A stretch of 57,906 nt of DNA from a virus. Taxonomy: Duplodnaviria > Caudoviricetes. The number at the start of each line of letters is the position of its first letter. The stretch's first letter is position 1. Location of the stretch: positions 1-57,906 of IMG/VR virus record IMGVR_UViG_3300032401_000578. The stretch is one strand, 5' to 3'. Of this stretch, positions 1,529-54,138 are shown piece by piece. The translations under genes and the position numbers were made by a program. The notes below the pieces were generated by a model. The model was not told the origin of the DNA, did no database searches, and saw only the letters and a list, made by a program, of their open reading frames with translations.

Positions 1529-2660
1529 ACGCATCCGGTGGCTGTACGACGAGTTCGACCAAGTCTTCGTGTCGTTCTCCGGCGGGAAAGACTCGACGGT
1601 CTGCCTTCATCTGGCGTTGCAAGTGGCGGCGGAACGGGGGCGGCTCCCTTTGCCCGTGCTGTTCATCGACCAAGAGGCCGAGTGGCAGATGGCTATCGAC
1701 TACATCCGGACGGTGATGTCGGACCCGCGAGTCAAGCCGTTGTGGCTCCAAGTTCCCTTCAAGATATTCAACGCGACATCCGGGACGGACCCTTGGCTGC
1801 AATGTTGGGAGCCGCGCAAGACGTGGATCCGGGAGCGTGAGCCGGAAAGCTATCACGAGAACGTCTTCGGGACGGACCGCTTCGGCGAGATGTTCAACGC
1901 GGCGATCAATTACTTCGCAGGCGGGAAACGGGCGGCAAACATCGGCGGGATGCGGTGCGAGGAAAGCCCGTCCCGGCTCCGGGGGCTGACGCACGGGAAC
2001 ACGTACAAGGGACAAGCGTGGGGGAAGGTGCTGGATCGGAAACGGGAGCAGTTCACGTTCTACCCGATTTACGACTGGTCGCTTTCGGATGTCTGGAAGG
2101 CGATTCATGACGAGGCATGGAAGTACTGCCCGCTCTACGACTTCCAGTATCGCTACGGAATTGCGCCGCGAGACATGCGAGTCTCAAACGTGCATCACGA
2201 GACGGCTGTCAAGAATCTGTTCTATCTCCAAGAGGTGGAGCCGGAGACGTGGGAACGGATCGTCGGGCGATTGTCGGGGGTCAACACGGTTGGCAAGCTG
2301 CGGGACGATATGCTTTGCCCGAAGGAACTGCCGTTCATGTTCACTTCGTGGGCGGAGTATCGGGACTATCTGGTTGAAAATCTGGTCACGGAGGAGGCGG
2401 ACAGGGAAGACTTTCGGAAACTCTGGAAGCGGGGCGAGGGCAAGTACGATGCGGAGACGACCGAAAAGCTGCACCGGATGCAGGTCAAGGCTGTCCTCGC
2501 GAACGACCATTGGGGGGTGAAGATCGGTTCTTTCGAGAACAGTCATCAGAAGAACGTCGTGGGCGGGGTGGCGAACGACCGCTATCACGAACGCCAAGCG
2601 GCCAAACGGAAAGACCGGGAAACGACAAAGCTCTTGATCGGAAAGCGGGTGGAAGGATGA
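1485..2660 (+). CDS. PAPS-reductase-family (PP-loop) protein, IbrA/YbdN-like
   Basis: VSFSGGKDS PP-loop, FIDQEAEW, GMRCEES..R, YPIYDWS..DVW, MRVS. Confidence 0.9.
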   Translation: MKLYLQKTVYEAALERIRWLYDEFDQVFVSFSGGKDSTVCLHLALQVAAERGRLPLPVLFIDQEAEWQMAIDYIRTVMSDPRVKPLWLQVPFKIFNATSGTDPWLQCWEPRKTWIREREPESYHENVFGTDRFGEMFNAAINYFAGGKRAANIGGMRCEESPSRLRGLTHGNTYKGQAWGKVLDRKREQFTFYPIYDWSLSDVWKAIHDEAWKYCPLYDFQYRYGIAPRDMRVSNVHHETAVKNLFYLQEVEPETWERIVGRLSGVNTVGKLRDDMLCPKELPFMFTSWAEYRDYLVENLVTEEADREDFRKLWKRGEGKYDAETTEKLHRMQVKAVLANDHWGVKIGSFENSHQKNVVGGVANDRYHERQAAKRKDRETTKLLIGKRVEG

Positions 2661-3322
2661 CGTGGCAAACGGAACTAGCGGCGGCGTGCGACGCGGCCCC
2701 GGACAAGACGGCGTTCATCGCTGAGGCGAGGGAGATTCTTCACGGGTCGAGTCCGCTCAAGGCGCAACCGGTGGACATCGTGCGGTGGGTACCGATAGGG
2801 ATGGTGGACCCGAACGACTACAACCCGAACTCGGTGGCGAAGTCGGAGATGAAGCTGCTCTACACGTCGATTCTGCACGACGGCTACACGCAGCCGATTG
2901 TCACGATCCAAAACCCGGACACGGGACGATTCTGCATCGTAGACGGATTTCACCGGTACTTCACAGCGTTCTCGAATCCGGACATTCTGGCCCGAAACCT
3001 CGGACGGGTTCCGGTCGTGGTGATTGCGAAGGAAATCAACGACCGGATGGCTTCGACGGTTCGGCACAATCGGGCGAGGGGGAAACACTCGATTACAGGG
3101 ATGGCGTCGATGGTGTTCACGATGCTGGAGAACGGCTGGGAAGACGCGGCAATCTGCAATGAACTCGGGATGGAGCCGGAGGAACTACTCAAGCTGAAAC
3201 ACGTTACCGGATTTTCAAAGCTGTTCGCGAACGTGGAGTACCGGAGAGCGTGGGTCACGGATCAACAGGTAGCAATCCGCAAGAAGCACGAAAGGGAGGT
3301 CGCGGCTGGAACTCTGGGGTGA
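2657..3322 (+). CDS. ParB-like nuclease domain protein, IbrB/YbdM-like
   Basis: NDYNPNSVA..EMKLL..SI..DGYTQPIV, IVDGFHRY, RMASTVRHNRARGKH; ATGA coupled to the upstream gene. Confidence 0.9.
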   Translation: MTWQTELAAACDAAPDKTAFIAEAREILHGSSPLKAQPVDIVRWVPIGMVDPNDYNPNSVAKSEMKLLYTSILHDGYTQPIVTIQNPDTGRFCIVDGFHRYFTAFSNPDILARNLGRVPVVVIAKEINDRMASTVRHNRARGKHSITGMASMVFTMLENGWEDAAICNELGMEPEELLKLKHVTGFSKLFANVEYRRAWVTDQQVAIRKKHEREVAAGTLG

Positions 3323-3385
3323 TTCTTCGGTATTATCGAACCAAGGGTGATGAAACTGTGGCGTCGATAATTCACGGAGAACGCA

Positions 3386-4153
3386 ATGGCGGAAGCCGAG
3401 GCTGAGAAACCCAAGGGGAAACGTGGGCGGAAACCGGGGAGGCAACCCGGAAAAGTCTACTGTCATGCAAACGGCAACACGTGCGGGCGGTTCCCGGCGA
3501 AGGGGCGAACGACGTGCAAGGCTCACGGTGGTGGAGCCAAGGTCGGTTCGGACTCGCCTTCGTACAAGGGGAAGAACTTCTCCCGTCACATGCCGAAACG
3601 GTTGGGGCAACTCTTCGATGAAGCGATGCTCGACCCGGACTTCCTGAACCAGCGGCGGCGGATCGCGCAGATGTCGGCCCGGTGCGAAGAGCTGTGGGTT
3701 CGTATCTCGGCGGAGGAGCGGGCGGCCAATTGGGCGGAGGCCAAGAAGGTCTGGTCAGCCATGTGGGCGGCGAACGCGGCTTACTCGGTGGCCAGCAAGG
3801 CTGGGGACGCGGCGGAGGTGTCGCGGCAAGCCGGGGTCATGGCGGACACGAAGGCGGAGCTGGAGACGATGCTCGGCGTCGGAGCCGGGGAGCAGTTCGC
3901 GTGGGAAGAGTTCCGGAAGGCGTTGGACACGACGCGGCGACTGATTGAGTCGGAGCGGCGTCGCGAGGTAGAGTCGCAACAGGTGATCTCGATGAGTCTT
4001 GTCACGATGCTGGTGGACCGGCTGGCCGATATTGTGAGGCGAAATGTCACGAACAAGGCTGAACTTCGGACAATCTCGGTCGAGTTCACTCGGGAACTTG
4101 GTCAGCAGGTTGGGACTCAGATTGATGCCGGAGTTGGAGCCGGAGCCGGGTGA
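3386..4153 (+). CDS. Probable terminase small subunit (HGG-motif protein)
   Basis: C..C..CKAHGG motif; directly upstream of and overlapping terL. Confidence 0.6.
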   Translation: MAEAEAEKPKGKRGRKPGRQPGKVYCHANGNTCGRFPAKGRTTCKAHGGGAKVGSDSPSYKGKNFSRHMPKRLGQLFDEAMLDPDFLNQRRRIAQMSARCEELWVRISAEERAANWAEAKKVWSAMWAANAAYSVASKAGDAAEVSRQAGVMADTKAELETMLGVGAGEQFAWEEFRKALDTTRRLIESERRREVESQQVISMSLVTMLVDRLADIVRRNVTNKAELRTISVEFTRELGQQVGTQIDAGVGAGAG

Positions 4154-6455
4154 CGAGGCGGAGCCGACGGACGACGCGGTAGACTTCGAGGATCTCTACC
4201 CGGCTCAACCCGGCCCGCAGCGGATTTTCCGGAAGTCGCGGGCGGACATCGCCATCTACGGCGGGGCGGCTGGCGGCGGGAAGTCGTGGTCGCTGCTGAC
4301 GGAACCGCTGCAACACGTGACGAACGGAAACTTCGGGGCCGTGATCTTCCGGCGGACAAACCCGGAGATCACGAACGAAGGCGGGTTGTGGGATGAGTCC
4401 GTCAAGCTGTACCCGCTTCTACAGGCTGAACAGGCGGGGCATTCGTGGCGGTTCGACTCCGGGGCGTCAATCACGTTCGGAGCGATCCAGCTCGAAAAGG
4501 ACGTCTTTAAATGGAAGTCGTCGCAAATCTGTCTCATGTGCGTCGCAAGCGGAACGCCGATTGTGATGGCAGATGGGAGTCGGGTGGCGGTCGATGACGT
4601 GCAGGAGGGCGACTACGTGATGACTCTGGCGGGGCCGAGAAGAATCACAAGAAAGCACGACCCACGAATAGCGAAATGCGTCACGGCGACGATTGTGTCA
4701 GAAACGGGTGACGTCGTCGGATCGCAAACGCATCCCGAAGACCATCCTATTTTGACGGACAGGGGATGGGAGTCGTTCGCTTCGATTGCCAGACAATCCC
4801 GATCCGCTCGCAAACCGACTTCGCGACCTGCGAAGAGATGCCGGTCGCGGCGGCAAAGTCGCGATACCCGATTGACGGGTCAGAAGCGGCGACCCGGACG
4901 GCGGACTCCACTTCTGGAGAGTGCGGGTTGCAAGGGCGTCTGCGTGTCGTCAGCAGATGCGGGAAGCGGTTCCGTAAGGTCTGGTGGTGGACTCCGAGCA
5001 GCGTGGCGGCCTCAAGCGTGGAGCGTCCAAGTAGTGCTGCACGAACGGACTCTTCTGGAAGATTCACGGCATGGTCATCTTCAAATCCGTGAAGATTCTT
5101 GTGGTCAACATCCGTCATCAACTGGAGGTTGCTCGGGTCATTGTTTTGGCGATTCCGGTCAATGTGATGAACAACCTCAAGCCCGCTTAGGTAACGGCCG
5201 AGAACTTTTTCCATCACAAGCCGATGTTGGCGGACGAAACCCCGTTTTGTCACGGCCGGGTGGTGTGGGGCGTATTCGAGAACATACCCAAAAGCGTCGA
5301 TTTGAGTTCGACCACCCATACACGAAGGAACGACGCTTGGCTTCGGAGGACGTCCAGCTTTGTTCATGCGAATTGACTCCAGTTGGGGAACGGACGGTAT
5401 TTGACCTGACAATCGAGGGCGAAAACCATTATGTGAGTTCGTTCGGTTTCGTCAATCAAAATTGTTTCGACGAATTGACATCGTTCACGGAGAAGCAATT
5501 CTGGTACATGCTGAGCCGGAACCGGTCAACGTGCGGCATCAAGCCCTACGTCCGGGCAACGACGAACCCGGACGCGGACTCTTGGGTCGCGACGCTCGTG
5601 GCGTGGTGGGTCGACGAAGAGACTGGCAATCCGATCCCGGAGCGGGCTGGCGTGCTCAGATGGTTTGTCCGGGTGGACGACGTCTTGGTGTGGGGCGACT
5701 CGGCCGACGAACTGCGGCGGCGGCATCCGGGATCGTTCCCGAAATCGTTCACGTTCATCCCGGCGAAGCTGGAGGACAATCCGGCCCTTGAGCGGCTCGA
5801 CCCCGGCTACCGGGCGAATCTGATGGCGTTGCCAACGGTCGAACGGATGCGGCTCCTCGGGGGAAACTGGAAGGTCCGGCTGACGGGCGGCATGTTCTTC
5901 CGGGCGGGAAGTATCGGCGTGCTGGATTGGGAGCCGACGGCGACGCATATCGTGAGGGGCTGGGACTTGGCGGCGTTGGAAGGGAGCGGCGACTGGACGG
6001 CCGGTCTCAAGATGGGAGTTCAAGGGAACGGCCGGTACGTGATTCTCGACCTGATCGCGGGGCAGTGGGAAACGGGCGGCCGTGATGCGAGGATCAAACA
6101 GGCGGCGGACATGGACGGGATTAGCGTGCATCAACGGCTGCCGCAAGATCCGGGGCAGGCCGGGAAGTCGCAGGTTGCCCACTTCGCCCGGATGCTGAAT
6201 GGCTGCAATTGGTCGAGCGGCCCGGTGATCGGAAACAAGGCGACGCGGGCGACGCGGTTCGCGGCGGCTGTCAATTCGGGGCAAGTGGACATGGTGAGAG
6301 CCGACTGGAACAAGCGGCTGCTCGACCGGCTCGACCGGTTCCCGGACTCGTCCGTACCCGACGACGAGGTGGACGCTTGCGCCGACGCCTTCAACACGAT
6401 TCTCGACGGGTGCTGGATCTCGGACGAAACGGAAGTGTCGTCAGTGTCGGTGTAA
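4125..6455 (+). CDS. terL: Terminase large subunit, intein-containing
   Basis: Walker A YGGAAGGGKS; Walker B ICLM|CFDE split by the intein; RATTNP; nuclease motifs WDLAA, QDPGQAGK, DDEVDA. Confidence 0.95.
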   Translation: MPELEPEPGDEAEPTDDAVDFEDLYPAQPGPQRIFRKSRADIAIYGGAAGGGKSWSLLTEPLQHVTNGNFGAVIFRRTNPEITNEGGLWDESVKLYPLLQAEQAGHSWRFDSGASITFGAIQLEKDVFKWKSSQICLMCVASGTPIVMADGSRVAVDDVQEGDYVMTLAGPRRITRKHDPRIAKCVTATIVSETGDVVGSQTHPEDHPILTDRGWESFASIARQSRSARKPTSRPAKRCRSRRQSRDTRLTGQKRRPGRRTPLLESAGCKGVCVSSADAGSGSVRSGGGLRAAWRPQAWSVQVVLHERTLLEDSRHGHLQIREDSCGQHPSSTGGCSGHCFGDSGQCDEQPQARLGNGRELFPSQADVGGRNPVLSRPGGVGRIREHTQKRRFEFDHPYTKERRLASEDVQLCSCELTPVGERTVFDLTIEGENHYVSSFGFVNQNCFDELTSFTEKQFWYMLSRNRSTCGIKPYVRATTNPDADSWVATLVAWWVDEETGNPIPERAGVLRWFVRVDDVLVWGDSADELRRRHPGSFPKSFTFIPAKLEDNPALERLDPGYRANLMALPTVERMRLLGGNWKVRLTGGMFFRAGSIGVLDWEPTATHIVRGWDLAALEGSGDWTAGLKMGVQGNGRYVILDLIAGQWETGGRDARIKQAADMDGISVHQRLPQDPGQAGKSQVAHFARMLNGCNWSSGPVIGNKATRATRFAAAVNSGQVDMVRADWNKRLLDRLDRFPDSSVPDDEVDACADAFNTILDGCWISDETEVSSVSV
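4747..5367 (-). CDS. HNH homing endonuclease (206 aa) encoded antisense within the intein
   Basis: GYV...HP...GFVRQHRLVMEKVLGRYL...EVVHHIDRNRQNNDPSNLQLM (HNH); two HTH-like C-terminal segments; GGAG about 10 nt upstream of the ATG. Confidence 0.9.
   Translation of the reverse strand: MNKAGRPPKPSVVPSCMGGRTQIDAFGYVLEYAPHHPAVTKRGFVRQHRLVMEKVLGRYLSGLEVVHHIDRNRQNNDPSNLQLMTDVDHKNLHGFEDDHAVNLPEESVRAALLGRSTLEAATLLGVHHQTLRNRFPHLLTTRRRPCNPHSPEVESAVRVAASDPSIGYRDFAAATGISSQVAKSVCERIGIVWQSKRTTPIPCPSK
5428..5455 (-). promoter_or_regulatory. Sigma70-like promoter for the antisense HNH gene
   Basis: Minus strand reads TTGACG-16 nt-CATAAT, about 60 nt upstream of the HNH ATG. Confidence 0.6.
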
Positions 6456-39873: not shown

Positions 39874-39943
39874 ACTGGACGGACGCTGGCCGGGTCGCGA
39901 CGTGCGGCCCGGCCCTTCGGTAACAACGAACAAGGGGCGGACG

Positions 39944-40507
39944 ATGACAAACGACGAACTGATGGAAGCGGCGGCGACCGGAGATCAAGCGGCCTTCGGG
40001 ACGCTGGTGGAACGGCACGGCGGGCGGCTGGTCGGGTGGATCTCGGCCCGCGTCGGAAGCGACCCGTCGCTGGACGCTGAGGACGTGGCTCAGGAGGTGT
40101 GGCTGCGTGTGATTCGGGGGGCTGGCGGTTATCAACCGCAGGGGCAATTCGTCGCGTGGCTGTACCGAATGGCTCGAAACATCCTGATGGATTCGGCCAA
40201 GATTCGGCGGCGGTCTGCGTTGGGTCACGTCGAGGCTAACGGCGACGACTGGAGCCAGCTCGACGTGGTGGCTACCGACGACGAGGCGGTAGTGGACGTG
40301 GTGGACCGTCGGGACGTGCTGCGACAGATTGAGGGCGTTCTGGAGTACTTGGACGCGGAGCAGGTCGAGGTCTTGCGTGGAGTCGCGGAAGGGGAGTCGC
40401 TGTCGGAGATCGCGGCCCGGATGGGTGCGTTGCTGCCGACGACGAAGGGGCGGTGGCGGATCGCGAAGGAAAAGATTCGGAGGCGTCTGGTCAAGTGCGA
40501 TGCGTGA
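39944..40507 (+). CDS. ECF-type RNA polymerase sigma factor
   Basis: GDQAAFGTLVERH, DAEDVAQEVW, FVAWLYRMARN, region 4 SLSEIAARMG. Confidence 0.92.
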   Translation: MTNDELMEAAATGDQAAFGTLVERHGGRLVGWISARVGSDPSLDAEDVAQEVWLRVIRGAGGYQPQGQFVAWLYRMARNILMDSAKIRRRSALGHVEANGDDWSQLDVVATDDEAVVDVVDRRDVLRQIEGVLEYLDAEQVEVLRGVAEGESLSEIAARMGALLPTTKGRWRIAKEKIRRRLVKCDA

Positions 40508-53598: not shown

Positions 53599-54138
53599 AT
53601 GTCTGTGAAATGCCGATGGTGTGAAGCGGAGGCTACCCGTCAACGCGGACGGACGCCGGTATGCCGGATTCACTTCCGGTTCGTGACAATGCGGGAATCG
53701 TGCGTTCGGAGGGGGACGGAGGTCCCCACGATGGAGCGACTCGAAGCGATTGCAAAAAAGAGTGGGACGACATGCCCAATATGCAAACGCGAAATGAATT
53801 GGACACGGGCGGAGGGGGCCGACACTGTGTTGACGTTGCAGCACGACCGCGATGGGGAAATGACGTTTCTGTGCATGTCGTGCAACAGCCGACACTTCGC
53901 TTACAGCGGCGATGAGTTCTATGTGGTTGGGCCGGATCTGAAAAGATGCTCTGTTTGTAAGACCGTCAAGACGTTGGATGAGTTCGGAAACGACAAATCT
54001 GGAAGATGGGCCGGGAAAACGTGCAGATGCAAAGTGTGTGTTGGGGTTCTTCACAAAAAATGGCAGGAGGAAAATCGTGACAAGTACAACGCCTACATGC
54101 GGGAATACAAGCGGCGGCGACGGGCGGAGGCCCGGTGA
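53599..54138 (+). CDS. Zn-binding His-Me (HNH/EndoVII-like) free-standing endonuclease candidate
   Basis: CPIC...TLQHD......LCMSCN..H plus KRCSVCK..K...EF...CKVC; visibly more AT-rich than its flanks. Confidence 0.65.
   Translation: MSVKCRWCEAEATRQRGRTPVCRIHFRFVTMRESCVRRGTEVPTMERLEAIAKKSGTTCPICKREMNWTRAEGADTVLTLQHDRDGEMTFLCMSCNSRHFAYSGDEFYVVGPDLKRCSVCKTVKTLDEFGNDKSGRWAGKTCRCKVCVGVLHKKWQEENRDKYNAYMREYKRRRRAEAR

What the first reader, a model, noticed from the sequence alone, without database searches (positions are those of the whole stretch)
4539..5462. Terminase intein whose homing endonuclease is a separate gene on the opposite strand
Seen: TerL is interrupted in Walker B (ICLM|CFDE) by a 308-aa intein with intact splicing blocks. 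The roughly 200 residues where an endonuclease would normally sit are low-information R/S/G/C-rich sequence. The reverse strand of that same DNA encodes a clean 206-aa HNH endonuclease (5367..4747) with two HTH-like tails. It is the only convincing minus-strand gene in the genome. Established: intein homing endonucleases (LAGLIDADG, sometimes HNH) are normally translated in frame as part of the intein. Inference: this is a two-strand selfish element, with the splicing protein on one strand and the homing nuclease on the other. In this register a sense stop arises whenever an HNH codon NTT, NCT or NTC is followed by an A-starting codon. Several would be expected over about 200 codons and none occur, which points to selection on both frames. 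I cannot confirm novelty without a literature search.
Basis: partly seen in the sequence, partly recalled or inferred. Interest (0 to 1): 0.95.

Follow-up and report, generated by a model that had tools for sequence, protein, structure and literature searches.

The report
Terminase intein with antisense HNH gene
A phage DNA-packaging gene is interrupted by a self-splicing intein whose homing nuclease is an intact HNH gene on the opposite strand; the layout is real and kept by selection, but it is an HNH version of an arrangement already described for other nucleases.

Summary
TerL (4044-6455, +) carries an exact 308-codon insertion (4539-5462) in Walker B, shown against an intein-less Rhizobium-phage TerL. 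The insertion's two ends fold as a Hint domain. The opposite strand (5367-4747) encodes an HNH_3 endonuclease with two helix-turn-helix modules.

The layout is not chance. In 39 of 40 related loci the HNH homologue lies antisense inside a long open frame, always in the same register. 19 of 20 tested host frames are terminases. For the window, 3.7-6.7 sense stops are expected and none occur. Codon-position divergence shows that the HNH frame is the one under amino-acid selection.

A sigma-70-like promoter for the HNH gene lies in the intein's block F/G codons, with codon-bias support at family level.

Antisense homing-endonuclease genes in inteins are already in print (Gorbalenya 1998, as cited by others; Gosselin et al. 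2025 preprint: antisense LAGLIDADG and VSR-like, also in TerL). I found no paper on the antisense HNH version. This scan has noted that version before on other DNA. Verdict: new variant of a known kind.

The parts
4044..6455 (+). Terminase large subunit (TerL) precursor ORF, 803 aa, with the intein in frame
   Evidence: ORF. Pfam Terminase_6N 63.2 bits and Terminase_6C 42.3 bits. PHROG 979 terminase large subunit, E 1.4e-135. 52-60% identical to the Rhizobium phage RHph_TM3_3_3 TerL on both sides of the insertion.
4260..4286 (+). Walker A / P-loop (GGAAGGGKS, residues 73-81)
   Evidence: Read from the translation. The motif definition is recalled, not tested. It shows that the intein is not in the P-loop.
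4539..5462 (+). Intein, 308 codons, inserted in Walker B (ICLM | intein | CFDE)
   Evidence: Exact insertion relative to an intein-less homologue. Cys1, block B His69, Asp289, C-terminal Asn308 and +1 Cys. Hint fold by AlphaFold2 plus Foldseek.
4539..4808 (+). N-terminal splicing domain (intein residues 1-90; blocks A and B)
   Evidence: pLDDT 81-98 in blocks of 10 residues. Conserved CVAxGTPVLMADGS...TLEGPR...H motif in 29 inteins. Weak Pfam Hom_end_hint/Vint hits, all below the cut-off.
4809..5288 (+). Central sense-frame region (intein residues 91-250), mostly a disordered read-through of the antisense gene
   Evidence: pLDDT <50 for residues 95-153 and most of 187-250. No family hit. Sense-frame identity 0.209 against 0.474 for the HNH frame over the same DNA.
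5019..5084 (+). Internal conserved strand and helix of the sense frame (intein residues 161-182, WSVQVVLHE...); a dual-coded patch
   Evidence: pLDDT 92 for residues 161-170 and 69 for 171-180; strand E161-168 and helix H169-182. At nt 5031-5049 the sense residues are more conserved than the HNH residues, and the HNH wobble positions are constrained (0.23-0.45 against about 0.7 elsewhere).
5289..5462 (+). C-terminal splicing domain (intein residues 251-308; HPYT motif, blocks F and G, ends ...FVNQN)
   Evidence: pLDDT 83-98. His259 and Tyr261 invariant and Asp289 in at least 90% of 29 inteins.
4747..5367 (-). HNH_3 homing-endonuclease gene (206 aa plus stop), with two C-terminal helix-turn-helix modules
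   Evidence: Pfam PF13392 at 43.1 bits against cut-off 24.8. 14 PHROG HNH endonuclease families. 153 homologues with E <= 0.001. Full-length conservation with invariant H83, N91, N95 and H104 (numbering from TTG 5412). AlphaFold2 mean pLDDT 88.3. Best PDB fold match is I-HmuI, prob 0.94, E 0.03.
5377..5380 (-). Shine-Dalgarno-like GGAG, 9 nt upstream of the HNH ATG
   Evidence: Read. A Shine-Dalgarno-like motif of at least 4 nt lies in the 13 nt (positions -16 to -4) upstream of a candidate start in 19 of 28 inteins (window included).
5428..5455 (-). Sigma-70-like promoter for the HNH gene (TTGACG, 16 nt, CATAAT), written in the antisense of the block F/G codons (N-H-Y ... F-V-N)
   Evidence: 10 of 12 matches, the only promoter-like site in 4400-6000 (0.4 expected). 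The homologous site scores >=9/12 in 17 of 29 inteins against 1.0% of 1836 background windows, and the Tyr codon is TAT in 20 of 26 against 7.4 expected. Recoding control: observed sum 262 against 235.1 +/- 4.3. Function is not shown.
5310..5331 (.). Dual-coded patch: sense HPYT(K)E against antisense HNH N-terminal PSxxGG
   Evidence: Sense residues are more conserved than HNH residues at 5 of the 8 codons. HNH wobble divergence is 0.26-0.33 at four codons against about 0.7 elsewhere.
5463..5474 (+). C-extein start CFDE (Walker B acidic residues), with +1 Cys as the splicing nucleophile
   Evidence: (C)(G)FDE follows the intein in 19 of the 28 locus inteins that carry a C-extein; the other 9 have related motifs such as CFDQ, CVDQ, CGIDE, CAYDE and (T/C)H(I/L)xFD. 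The Walker B assignment is recalled knowledge. Kelley et al. 2016 (passages) report TerL inteins in Walker B.

Best explanation
This is a composite, two-strand homing element in the Walker B motif of a phage terminase gene.

On the plus strand a class-1-type intein is translated as part of TerL and must splice out to give an active packaging ATPase. It has Cys1, the block B His, a C-terminal Asn and a +1 Cys. About 150 of its 308 residues (1-90 and 251-308, plus one short internal strand) build the Hint fold. The rest is a disordered read-through.

On the minus strand the same DNA encodes a free-standing-type HNH_3 endonuclease with two helix-turn-helix DNA-binding modules. It has its own Shine-Dalgarno site and probably its own sigma-70-type promoter, which lies in the antisense of the intein's block F/G codons.

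By inference, the nuclease cuts or nicks intein-less terL alleles near the Walker B codons during co-infection. Repair from the intein-bearing copy then spreads the whole cassette.

Selection acts on the amino acids of the HNH frame. In the sense frame it mainly removes stops and frameshifts, because a truncated TerL is lethal to the phage.

Shown: the architecture, its recurrence, the stop avoidance, the frame-specific constraint and the predicted folds. Inferred: splicing, transcription from the embedded promoter, nuclease activity and its target.
For: - **Exact in-frame insertion.** Shown against an intein-less homologue.
- **Hint fold.** Residues 1-90 and 251-308 have block pLDDT of 81-98. 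Foldseek gives 14 PDB matches with E <= 0.001; all of the listed ones are inteins (PI-SceI, Prp8, gp41-1, Ssp DnaB). TM normalised to the target is 0.74-0.78 against the Mtu RecA mini-intein.
- **HNH protein.** Pfam HNH_3 is above its cut-off. There are 153 homologues, conserved along the full length. AlphaFold2 gives pLDDT 88.3.
- **Recurrence.** In 39 of 40 loci fetched with the HNH alignment, exactly one opposite frame has 0 stops across the match. It is always in the register of the window (codon position 1 opposite position 1). The locus G+C ranges from 0.39 to 0.70, and the other two frames have 1-24 stops.
- **Hosts.** 19 of 20 tested host ORFs hit terminase families.
- **Stop avoidance.** All 33 distinct HNH stretches have 0 sense stops against expected means of 2.1-12.7 or 2.0-13.1 under the two nulls.
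- **Frame-specific constraint.** HNH codon-position divergence is 0.448 / 0.382 / 0.653. Amino-acid identity is 0.474 in the HNH frame and 0.209 in the sense frame.
- **Promoter.**
- **Mobility hints.** HNH identity (0.40-0.60 to the window) exceeds extein identity (0.26-0.37) for 21 of 22 loci, and the two correlate only weakly (rho 0.26 over 253 pairs). Contigs from related sediment samples carry terL relatives without the insert: one X4 contig bridges 4289 to 5565 with 357 instead of 1275 letters, and one X5 contig, 94% alike, has a loose end after 4531 that reads C-L-M-G-F-D.
- **Decayed copy.** In a Pseudorhizobium pelagicum genome (L044) both frames are broken, as expected once TerL is no longer needed.
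Against: - No expression or activity data exist. No RNA run holds the stretch.
- Pfam Hint models hit the window only below their cut-offs (19-21 bits against 27-36).
- The penultimate intein residue is Gln, not the usual His. The block B Thr is absent.
- The fold match of the HNH model to I-HmuI is weak (E 0.03, TM 0.28-0.34), and there are 0 PDB matches with E <= 0.001. The PDB profile search found nothing.
- Much of the promoter-likeness follows from the conserved protein motif. Recoded sequences already average 8.1 of 12. Only 5 of 29 inteins individually exceed 95% of their recodings; the window is at 0.041.
- The related loci are relatives, not independent trials.
- The window's nearest relative with DNA in hand (L001) also has the most similar extein (0.54), so recent movement of this particular copy is not shown.
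- Exceptions among the loci: L039 has stops in all three opposite frames (partial, at a contig edge). In L036 the sense frame stops 35 nt beyond the match. L018 is open across the match but has no recognisable Hint or TerL flanks.
Confidence: 0.8

Rival explanations
1. The intein is a vertically inherited resident, and the antisense HNH gene is a former invader that no longer drives homing. It would be an intact-looking passenger or one on its way to decay.
For: The closest relative with DNA (L001) shares both a similar extein (0.54) and a similar HNH (0.60), which is compatible with vertical descent. Decayed or interrupted copies exist: L044, L036 and L018. No activity data exist.
Against: The catalytic-motif residues are invariant in 25 sequences. 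Wobble-position divergence of 0.653 against 0.382 at position 2 shows long-term purifying selection on the HNH protein. HNH is more conserved than the essential host gene in most pairs. The start signals are kept.
Confidence: 0.1
2. The HNH protein serves the phage rather than the intein. It would act, for example, as a terminase-associated HNH nuclease that helps DNA packaging, placed inside terL by accident.
For: HNH genes next to terminase genes are common in phages (abstract of PMC3592412, seen in the listing). The gene sits in terL.
Against: The protein is of the HNH_3 plus double helix-turn-helix type, whose best fold match is the homing endonuclease I-HmuI. The closest TerL in the phage collection (52-60% identical over the aligned exteins) has no such gene inside terL. 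The gene travels with the intein through very different TerL families.
Confidence: 0.04
3. The minus-strand ORF, or the open sense frame, is a chance product of G+C-rich DNA, or the insert is a group I intron rather than an intein.
For: The window has 62% G+C and many long spurious ORFs on both strands.
Against: There are family hits and 153 homologues. The arrangement holds at locus G+C as low as 0.39, where the other frames carry up to 24 stops. The codon nulls reject chance. The Hint fold is predicted with confidence. No Rfam family, group I introns included, matches 4300-5700 at E <= 1.
Confidence: 0.01

Closest known systems
Non-canonical actinobacteriophage inteins with anti-sense LAGLIDADG or anti-sense VSR-like homing endonucleases (Gosselin, Arsenault, Gogarten, bioRxiv 10.1101/2025.01.02.630785; abstract, sections 8 and 15 and passages read)
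   Same: The endonuclease ORF lies on the strand opposite to an intein, between the splicing blocks. The sense frame is open and unstructured there. Terminase large subunit is among the hosts. The proposed origin is invasion of an intein by a free-standing endonuclease gene.
   Different: The nuclease here is an HNH_3 protein with two helix-turn-helix modules. That paper lists HNH only as an in-frame domain. Here the family comes from uncultured phages of many TerL types rather than from actinophages. I did not see its supplementary tables, which may list further types.
Synechocystis DnaX intein and Chloroflexus SpoVR-like intein with an antisense or out-of-frame LAGLIDADG ORF (Gorbalenya 1998 and Gogarten 2002, not seen, cited through; Phillips et al., bioRxiv 10.64898/2026.09.14.751524, abstract and section 17 read)
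   Same: The homing endonuclease is encoded in a reading frame other than that of the intein. The endonuclease frame is under purifying selection and the intein frame is relaxed over the overlap.
   Different: The hosts are cellular and the nuclease is LAGLIDADG. The dnaX case is described in the 2026 preprint as a +2 ORF.
I-HmuI-type free-standing or intron-encoded HNH homing endonucleases of phages (PDB 1u3e)
   Same: It has an HNH_3 catalytic motif and is the best fold match (prob 0.94). It is modular, with a nuclease followed by DNA-binding modules.
   Different: The fold match is weak (E 0.03). The C-terminal modules here resemble paired or Tc3-type bipartite helix-turn-helix domains, also weakly (E 0.3-0.8). 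The gene lies antisense inside an intein, not in an intron or between genes.
Fractured genes: split inteins with a free-standing endonuclease gene between the halves (Dassa et al. 2009, PMC2677866; abstract and passages seen)
   Same: An intein is associated with a separately translated endonuclease gene at the site where an in-frame domain would normally sit.
   Different: There the host gene is broken into two ORFs and spliced in trans. Here TerL is one continuous 803-codon frame.
ShiLan insertion: hidden out-of-frame HNH in a phage methylase (Arsenault et al. 2025, PMC11855218; abstract only)
   Same: An HNH endonuclease is hidden in another frame of an insertion that stays open in the host gene's frame.
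   Different: That HNH is on the same strand in another frame, and no splicing domain was detected there. Here it is on the opposite strand, inside a recognisable intein.

Membership tests
Intein (Hint-fold protein-splicing element, class 1) | In-frame insertion absent from orthologues, in a conserved site of the host protein | tested here: met
   Residues 166-473 are absent from the Rhizobium phage TerL. That protein's single Cys131 aligns to both junctions.
Intein (Hint-fold protein-splicing element, class 1) | N-terminal Cys/Ser, block B His, C-terminal Asn (or Gln), and +1 Cys/Ser/Thr | tested here: met
   Cys1 and His69 are invariant in 29 inteins. The inteins end in Asn (24 of 29) or Gln (5 of 29, each followed by Thr). 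The window has Asn308 followed by Cys.
Intein (Hint-fold protein-splicing element, class 1) | Penultimate His in block G and Thr in block B (TxxH) | tested here: not met
   The window ends in QN. None of the 29 inteins has His at the penultimate position. Block B reads PEDH in the window. Inteins without these residues are known to splice; this is recalled, not tested.
Intein (Hint-fold protein-splicing element, class 1) | Hint fold | tested here: met
   The AlphaFold2 model is confident for residues 1-90 and 251-308. Foldseek matches PI-SceI, Prp8, gp41-1 and the Mtu RecA mini-intein (TM up to 0.78 of the target). The Pfam Hint models score below their cut-offs.
Intein (Hint-fold protein-splicing element, class 1) | Protein splicing activity | not testable with these tools
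   Inferred from the essential role of TerL and the conserved splicing residues.
HNH_3 homing endonuclease (I-HmuI-like) | HNH_3 profile match above the curated threshold, with conserved His/Asn motif residues | tested here: met
   PF13392 at 43.1 bits against 24.8. H83, N91, N95 and H104 are invariant in 25 sequences.
HNH_3 homing endonuclease (I-HmuI-like) | Fold similarity to a solved HNH homing endonuclease | tested here: inconclusive
   I-HmuI is the top hit, but at E 0.03 and TM 0.28-0.34. The PDB sequence-profile search found 0 hits.
HNH_3 homing endonuclease (I-HmuI-like) | Site-specific cleavage or nicking of the element-free allele | not testable with these tools
The target is inferred to be the intein-less Walker B region.
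Non-canonical inteins with an antisense homing-endonuclease ORF | An endonuclease ORF on the opposite strand inside the intein, with the sense frame uninterrupted | tested here: met
Non-canonical inteins with an antisense homing-endonuclease ORF | Endonuclease of the LAGLIDADG or VSR-like type (the types published for this layout) | tested here: not met
   The ORF is HNH_3. No LAGLIDADG hit lies in this intein. The LAGLIDADG hits in L004 and L034 lie upstream of the HNH-bearing intein's Hint start.
Split intein / fractured gene | Host gene broken into two separately translated halves | tested here: not met
   The window has a single 803-codon ORF. The frame is continuous in 28 complete related inteins.
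Group I intron with antisense endonuclease gene | Group I intron RNA structure | tested here: not met
   No Rfam match at E <= 1 in 4300-5700. The insert is kept in frame and stop-free, which an intron would not need.

The most novel reading that the evidence does not exclude
The element is a fully self-contained, strand-symmetric mobile cassette. The codons of the intein's catalytic C-terminal blocks (N-H-Y ... V-N) double as a portable sigma-70 promoter for the antisense HNH gene. Two short patches are under amino-acid selection on both strands at once. One of them is a beta-strand of the Hint fold, encoded opposite the linker between the nuclease and its first helix-turn-helix module. If so, splicing chemistry, transcription signals and nuclease coding have co-evolved in the same bases. 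That would explain how one HNH-intein lineage has colonised the Walker B site of very different terminases.
Probability: 0.45. Interest if true: 0.6.

Novelty: new variant of a known kind. Interest (0 to 1): 0.45.

Why it matters
It extends a layout thought rare to the HNH family: an intein whose homing nuclease is a separate gene on the other strand. It also shows that in uncultured phages this is a large, old and mostly unannotated lineage aimed at the terminase Walker B motif.

For annotation, gene callers will report either a terminase of about 800 aa with an unexplained insert or an HNH gene that appears to split the terminase. Knowing the layout prevents both errors.

For evolution, it supports the idea that inteins acquire nucleases by invasion of free-standing genes.

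It is also a natural case of long antisense overlap (about 620 bases) in which the constraint on each strand can be measured. The codon-level evidence for a promoter written into splicing-block codons gives a simple testable prediction.

Tried and rejected
- **Chance ORF in G+C-rich DNA.** Rejected.
- **Group I intron.** No Rfam hit.
- **Origin by inversion of an in-frame HNH domain.** No flanking inverted repeats. The repeat finder gave only one 18-nt pair at 78%. This is not excluded for the distant past.
- **A known in-frame endonuclease in the sense middle.** No Pfam or PHROG hit, and the region is mostly disordered in the model.
- **PDB sequence-profile search with the HNH alignment.** 0 hits.
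- **RNA evidence.** No RNA holder was listed for 4300-5700, so expression could not be examined.
- **Read laying on four sediment runs.** It gave only short contigs. Parts of the intein without cover in X4 and X7 carry no weight.
- **The look-up of encoding contigs.** I wanted it for the genomic context of the closest HNH homologues (P0001 at 77% identity, and P0002).
- **Gorbalenya 1998 (PMC147447).** Not held. I know it only through citations in papers I read.
- **Supplementary files.** I did not open any. Supplemental Table 1 of the Gosselin preprint may bear on whether an antisense HNH was seen there.
- **'Not in print' claim.** My statement that the antisense HNH version is not in print rests on four full-text searches and on the sections read only.
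- **Unused tools.** The search of protein representatives, the protein-atlas search, complex prediction and the third homologous-protein search were not used.


Full report
**What is in the window**

The plus strand carries an 803-codon ORF, 4044-6455. It is a terminase large subunit: Pfam Terminase_6N and Terminase_6C, and PHROG 979 at E 1.4e-135.

In the phage collection 1373 records hold a relative, and none covers more than about 58% of it. The matches fall in two pieces on either side of residues 166-473.

BLASTP against the closest one, the 466-aa TerL of Rhizobium phage RHph_TM3_3_3, aligns residues 55-166 to 17-131 and residues 474-787 to 131-456. The insertion is therefore exact and lies between ...PLI and CFDE. 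The P-loop (GGAAGGGKS) is at residues 73-81. The insertion is thus in the hydrophobic-stretch-plus-DE motif that I take to be Walker B; the motif name is recalled. Kelley et al. 2016 report TerL inteins in Walker B (passages).

**The sense product is an intein with a mostly meaningless middle**

The insert starts with Cys and ends with Asn followed by Cys. Pfam Hint-type models hit only its first 33-85 residues, and below their cut-offs.

An alignment of 29 homologous inserts (the window plus 28 complete ones from related loci) has invariant Cys1, Thr29, Gly32, His69 (block B), His259 and Tyr261, and a nearly invariant Asp289. The ends are well conserved and the middle is not.

AlphaFold2 on that alignment gives pLDDT 81-98 for residues 1-90 and 83-98 for residues 251-308. 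It gives below 50 for residues 95-153 and most of 187-250.

Foldseek against the PDB returns 14 matches with E <= 0.001; all of those listed are inteins (PI-SceI, Prp8, gp41-1, Ssp DnaB). TM normalised to the target is 0.74-0.78 for the Mtu RecA mini-intein across both halves.

Two canonical residues are missing. The penultimate residue is Gln (never His in the 29), and block B lacks the Thr. Five of the 29 end in Gln followed by Thr.

**The antisense product is a real HNH endonuclease**

The minus-strand ORF runs from ATG 5367 to TAG 4749-4747. It matches HNH_3 at 43.1 bits against a cut-off of 24.8, and 14 PHROG HNH endonuclease families.

The large protein database holds 153 relatives with E <= 0.001, up to 77% identical. 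The 25 aligned ones are conserved along the whole length, with invariant H83, N91, N95 and H104 and an invariant helix-turn-helix core...HHQTLRN....

AlphaFold2 gives mean pLDDT 88.3: a beta-beta-alpha core followed by two three-helix bundles. The best PDB fold match is the homing endonuclease I-HmuI, but weakly (prob 0.94, E 0.03). The next matches are bipartite helix-turn-helix DNA binders such as Tc3 transposase and the Pax paired domain, at E 0.3-0.8. A PDB sequence-profile search found nothing.

**The arrangement recurs and is not chance**

With the HNH alignment I fetched 14 viral and 26 metagenomic loci; some are duplicates of one another.

In 39 of the 40, exactly one frame of the opposite strand has no stop across the HNH match, and it belongs to an open frame of 234-1194 codons. 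The other two frames have 1-24 stops.

In all 39 the register is that of the window: codon position 1 opposite position 1, and HNH wobble opposite sense position 2. Locus G+C ranges from 0.39 to 0.70.

Of 20 host frames tested, 9 hit Pfam terminase families and 10 more hit PHROG terminase families. L034 was not put to PHROGs. L004 and L034 also have LAGLIDADG-family hits, and L017 a second Hint hit, upstream of the HNH-bearing intein, which suggests a second intein.

The insertion point is the same in all complete ones, just before (C)(G)FDE or a related motif.

A scan of one genome per prokaryote species added three loci:
- an intact case in a Verrucomicrobiota MAG (L043);
- a duplicate of L015 filed as a Chlamydiae MAG (L042);
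- a decayed copy in Pseudorhizobium pelagicum (L044), where the nuclease half of the HNH ORF and the TerL frame are both broken.

Exceptions must be told:
- L039, a partial match at a contig edge, has stops in all three opposite frames.
- In L036 the sense frame ends at a stop 35 nt beyond the match, at the contig edge.
- L018 is open across the match, but its flanks show no Hint or TerL.

**Stop avoidance**

I kept each HNH protein and permuted its own synonymous codons. For the window the expected number of sense stops is 6.73, and 0 of 2000 trials were stop-free. Recoding with the extein's codon usage gives 3.68, with P0 = 0.015.

All 33 distinct HNH stretches have 0 stops, against means of 2.1-12.7 under the first null and 2.0-13.1 under the second. 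The sequences are relatives, so these are not 33 independent trials. However, their synonymous sites are close to saturation (see below).

**Which frame is selected**

Over the 159 alignment columns that are at least 80% occupied in the 33 sequences, mean pairwise nucleotide difference is 0.448, 0.382 and 0.653 at HNH codon positions 1, 2 and 3. The position that varies most is the second position of the sense codons, which is the opposite of what a selected sense protein would show.

Amino-acid identity is 0.474 in the HNH frame and 0.209 in the sense frame over the same DNA.

A per-codon table shows two patches where the sense residue is the better conserved and the HNH wobble is constrained:
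- nt 5310-5331, sense HPYT.E, upstream of block F;
- nt 5031-5049, sense VVLHE, which the model places with pLDDT 92 as a strand (161-168) within the confidently modelled part.

These are the only places where I see selection on both strands at once. I could not inspect contacts in the model, so the role of the internal strand is an inference.

**Expression signals**

GGAG lies 9 nt upstream of ATG 5367. A Shine-Dalgarno-like word of at least 4 nt lies in the 13 nt (positions -16 to -4) upstream of a candidate start in 19 of 28 inteins, the window included.

The only sigma-70-like site in 4400-6000 is on the minus strand: TTGACG (5455-5450), 16 nt, CATAAT (5433-5428). That is 10 of 12 matches, with 0.4 sites expected. 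It is the antisense of the codons for N-H-Y and F-V-N in intein blocks F and G.

At the homologous place, 17 of 29 inteins score at least 9 of 12 and 11 score at least 10. L002 is a perfect TTGACA-16-TATAAT. Among 1836 windows on the antisense of the exteins the corresponding figures are 1.0% and 0.0%.

Because the protein motif itself favours these letters, I ran two synonymous controls.
- The Tyr codon of the H-Y pair is TAT in 20 of 26 cases against 7.4 expected from extein usage (0 of 100000 simulations reach 20). The window's exteins use TAC 7 times and TAT never.
- Recoding the last 16 codons with extein usage gives a summed score of 235.1 +/- 4.3 (maximum 250 in 1000 trials), against 262 observed. 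Only 5 of 29 inteins are individually beyond their 95% level, and the window is at 0.041.

The promoter is therefore supported at family level and unproven for this copy. A first-stage note on this same window had pointed to the same promoter and ribosome-binding site. I reached it independently through and tested it.

**Mobility**

HNH identity between loci (0.40-0.60 to the window) exceeds identity of the flanking TerL (0.26-0.37) for all but L001 (0.54 extein, 0.60 HNH). The two are only weakly correlated (rho 0.26, 253 pairs). This fits an element that moves among divergent terminases, but I built no tree and ran no congruence test.

The window comes from sediment metagenomes, and no RNA run holds it. 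Laying contigs of four related runs gave two weak hints of empty sites:
- One X4 contig joins 4289 to 5565 with 357 letters in place of 1275. The extein part of that span is 351 nt.
- One X5 contig, 94% alike over 4337-4531, continues for 15 letters that read C-L-M-G-F-D instead of entering the intein.

Each hint is a single short contig of low depth.

**The rest of the window**

The 10 longest other minus-strand ORFs that I tested have no PHROG hit. Of the 10 plus-strand ORFs tested, 8 have hits, 6 of which overlap tested minus-strand ORFs (head protein or protease, sigma factor, exonuclease, endonuclease VII, ParB-like and others). I did not test every ORF.

**What is known**

Full-text searches led to four relevant papers.
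[quoted passage not shown] TerL is among the hosts. They credit the antisense LAGLIDADG layout to Gorbalenya 1998 and Gogarten 2002 (sections 8 and 15 and passages read).
- Phillips et al. (bioRxiv 2026) show frame-specific selection for the dnaX intein's out-of-frame LAGLIDADG (abstract and section 17 read).
- Arsenault et al. 2025 describe a hidden out-of-frame HNH in a methylase insertion with no splicing domain (abstract only).
- Dassa et al. 2009 describe split inteins with free-standing endonuclease genes (abstract and passages).

None of the text I saw describes an antisense HNH inside an intein. I did not see supplements or the 1998 paper itself.

This scan's own notes list the same HNH layout on other DNA: 78 findings hold the search words, in at least 63 genomes. 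Most of those shown are in the TerL P-loop. Those notes are unchecked leads, and I did not use them as evidence.

**Verdict**

It is an HNH variant, at the TerL Walker B site, of a published kind of non-canonical intein.
- the size and age of the family;
- the fixed register;
- quantified stop avoidance;
- the two doubly constrained patches;
- codon-level support for a promoter written into the splicing-block codons.

Splicing, transcription and nuclease activity remain inferred.

Noticed in passing
window 5360-5377 and 5462-5479: There is an 18-nt direct repeat at 78% identity. The intein-internal codons L-C-S-C-E-L-T resemble the C-extein start N|C-F-D-E-L-T, 102 nt downstream. The HNH start codon lies inside the first copy. 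This may be chance, or a trace of target-site mimicry or duplication.
   Followed up: no
L008, L010, L011, L034, L040 (intein C-termini): Five related inteins end in Gln instead of Asn and are followed by Thr instead of Cys (SSQ|T, NAQ|T, SIQ|T). They form a sub-lineage with a different splice-junction chemistry in the same HNH-bearing family.
   Followed up: partly
L004 2889-6470, L017 1438-4908, L034 2709-6224 (minus strand of the loci): In L004 and L034, LAGLIDADG-family hits lie upstream of the antisense-HNH intein. L017 has a second Hint hit upstream (Hom_end_hint 146-253, no LAGLIDADG hit). This suggests a second intein, so two different selfish elements may share one gene.
   Followed up: no
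L044 (Pseudorhizobium pelagicum contig), about 2905-3552: This is a decayed copy in a cultured bacterium's genome. The helix-turn-helix half of the HNH ORF survives, but the nuclease half, the intein and the TerL frame are broken. It is presumably a defective prophage.
   Followed up: partly
window 39902-40507 (+): The phage encodes an RNA polymerase sigma-factor-like protein (PHROG 1740, E 4.4e-16). This could bear on which promoters are used late in infection, including the antisense one in terL.
   Followed up: no
window 53599-54138 (+): An ORF has two endonuclease VII-like matches (PHROG 2633 at residues 3-97 and PHROG 2340/1035 at residues 114-178). It is a possible second free-standing nuclease in the genome.
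   Followed up: no
window 2510-3322 (+): A ParB-like nuclease-domain protein (PHROG 2159, E 1.8e-67) lies just upstream of the packaging genes.
   Followed up: no
window 4271-4297 region, runs X6 and X7: Contigs of much higher depth (36.6 and 59.9) match only 4245-4297, just around the P-loop codons, with 6 differences, and run on unlike on both sides. They probably come from another abundant phage's terminase sharing the conserved motif.
   Followed up: no
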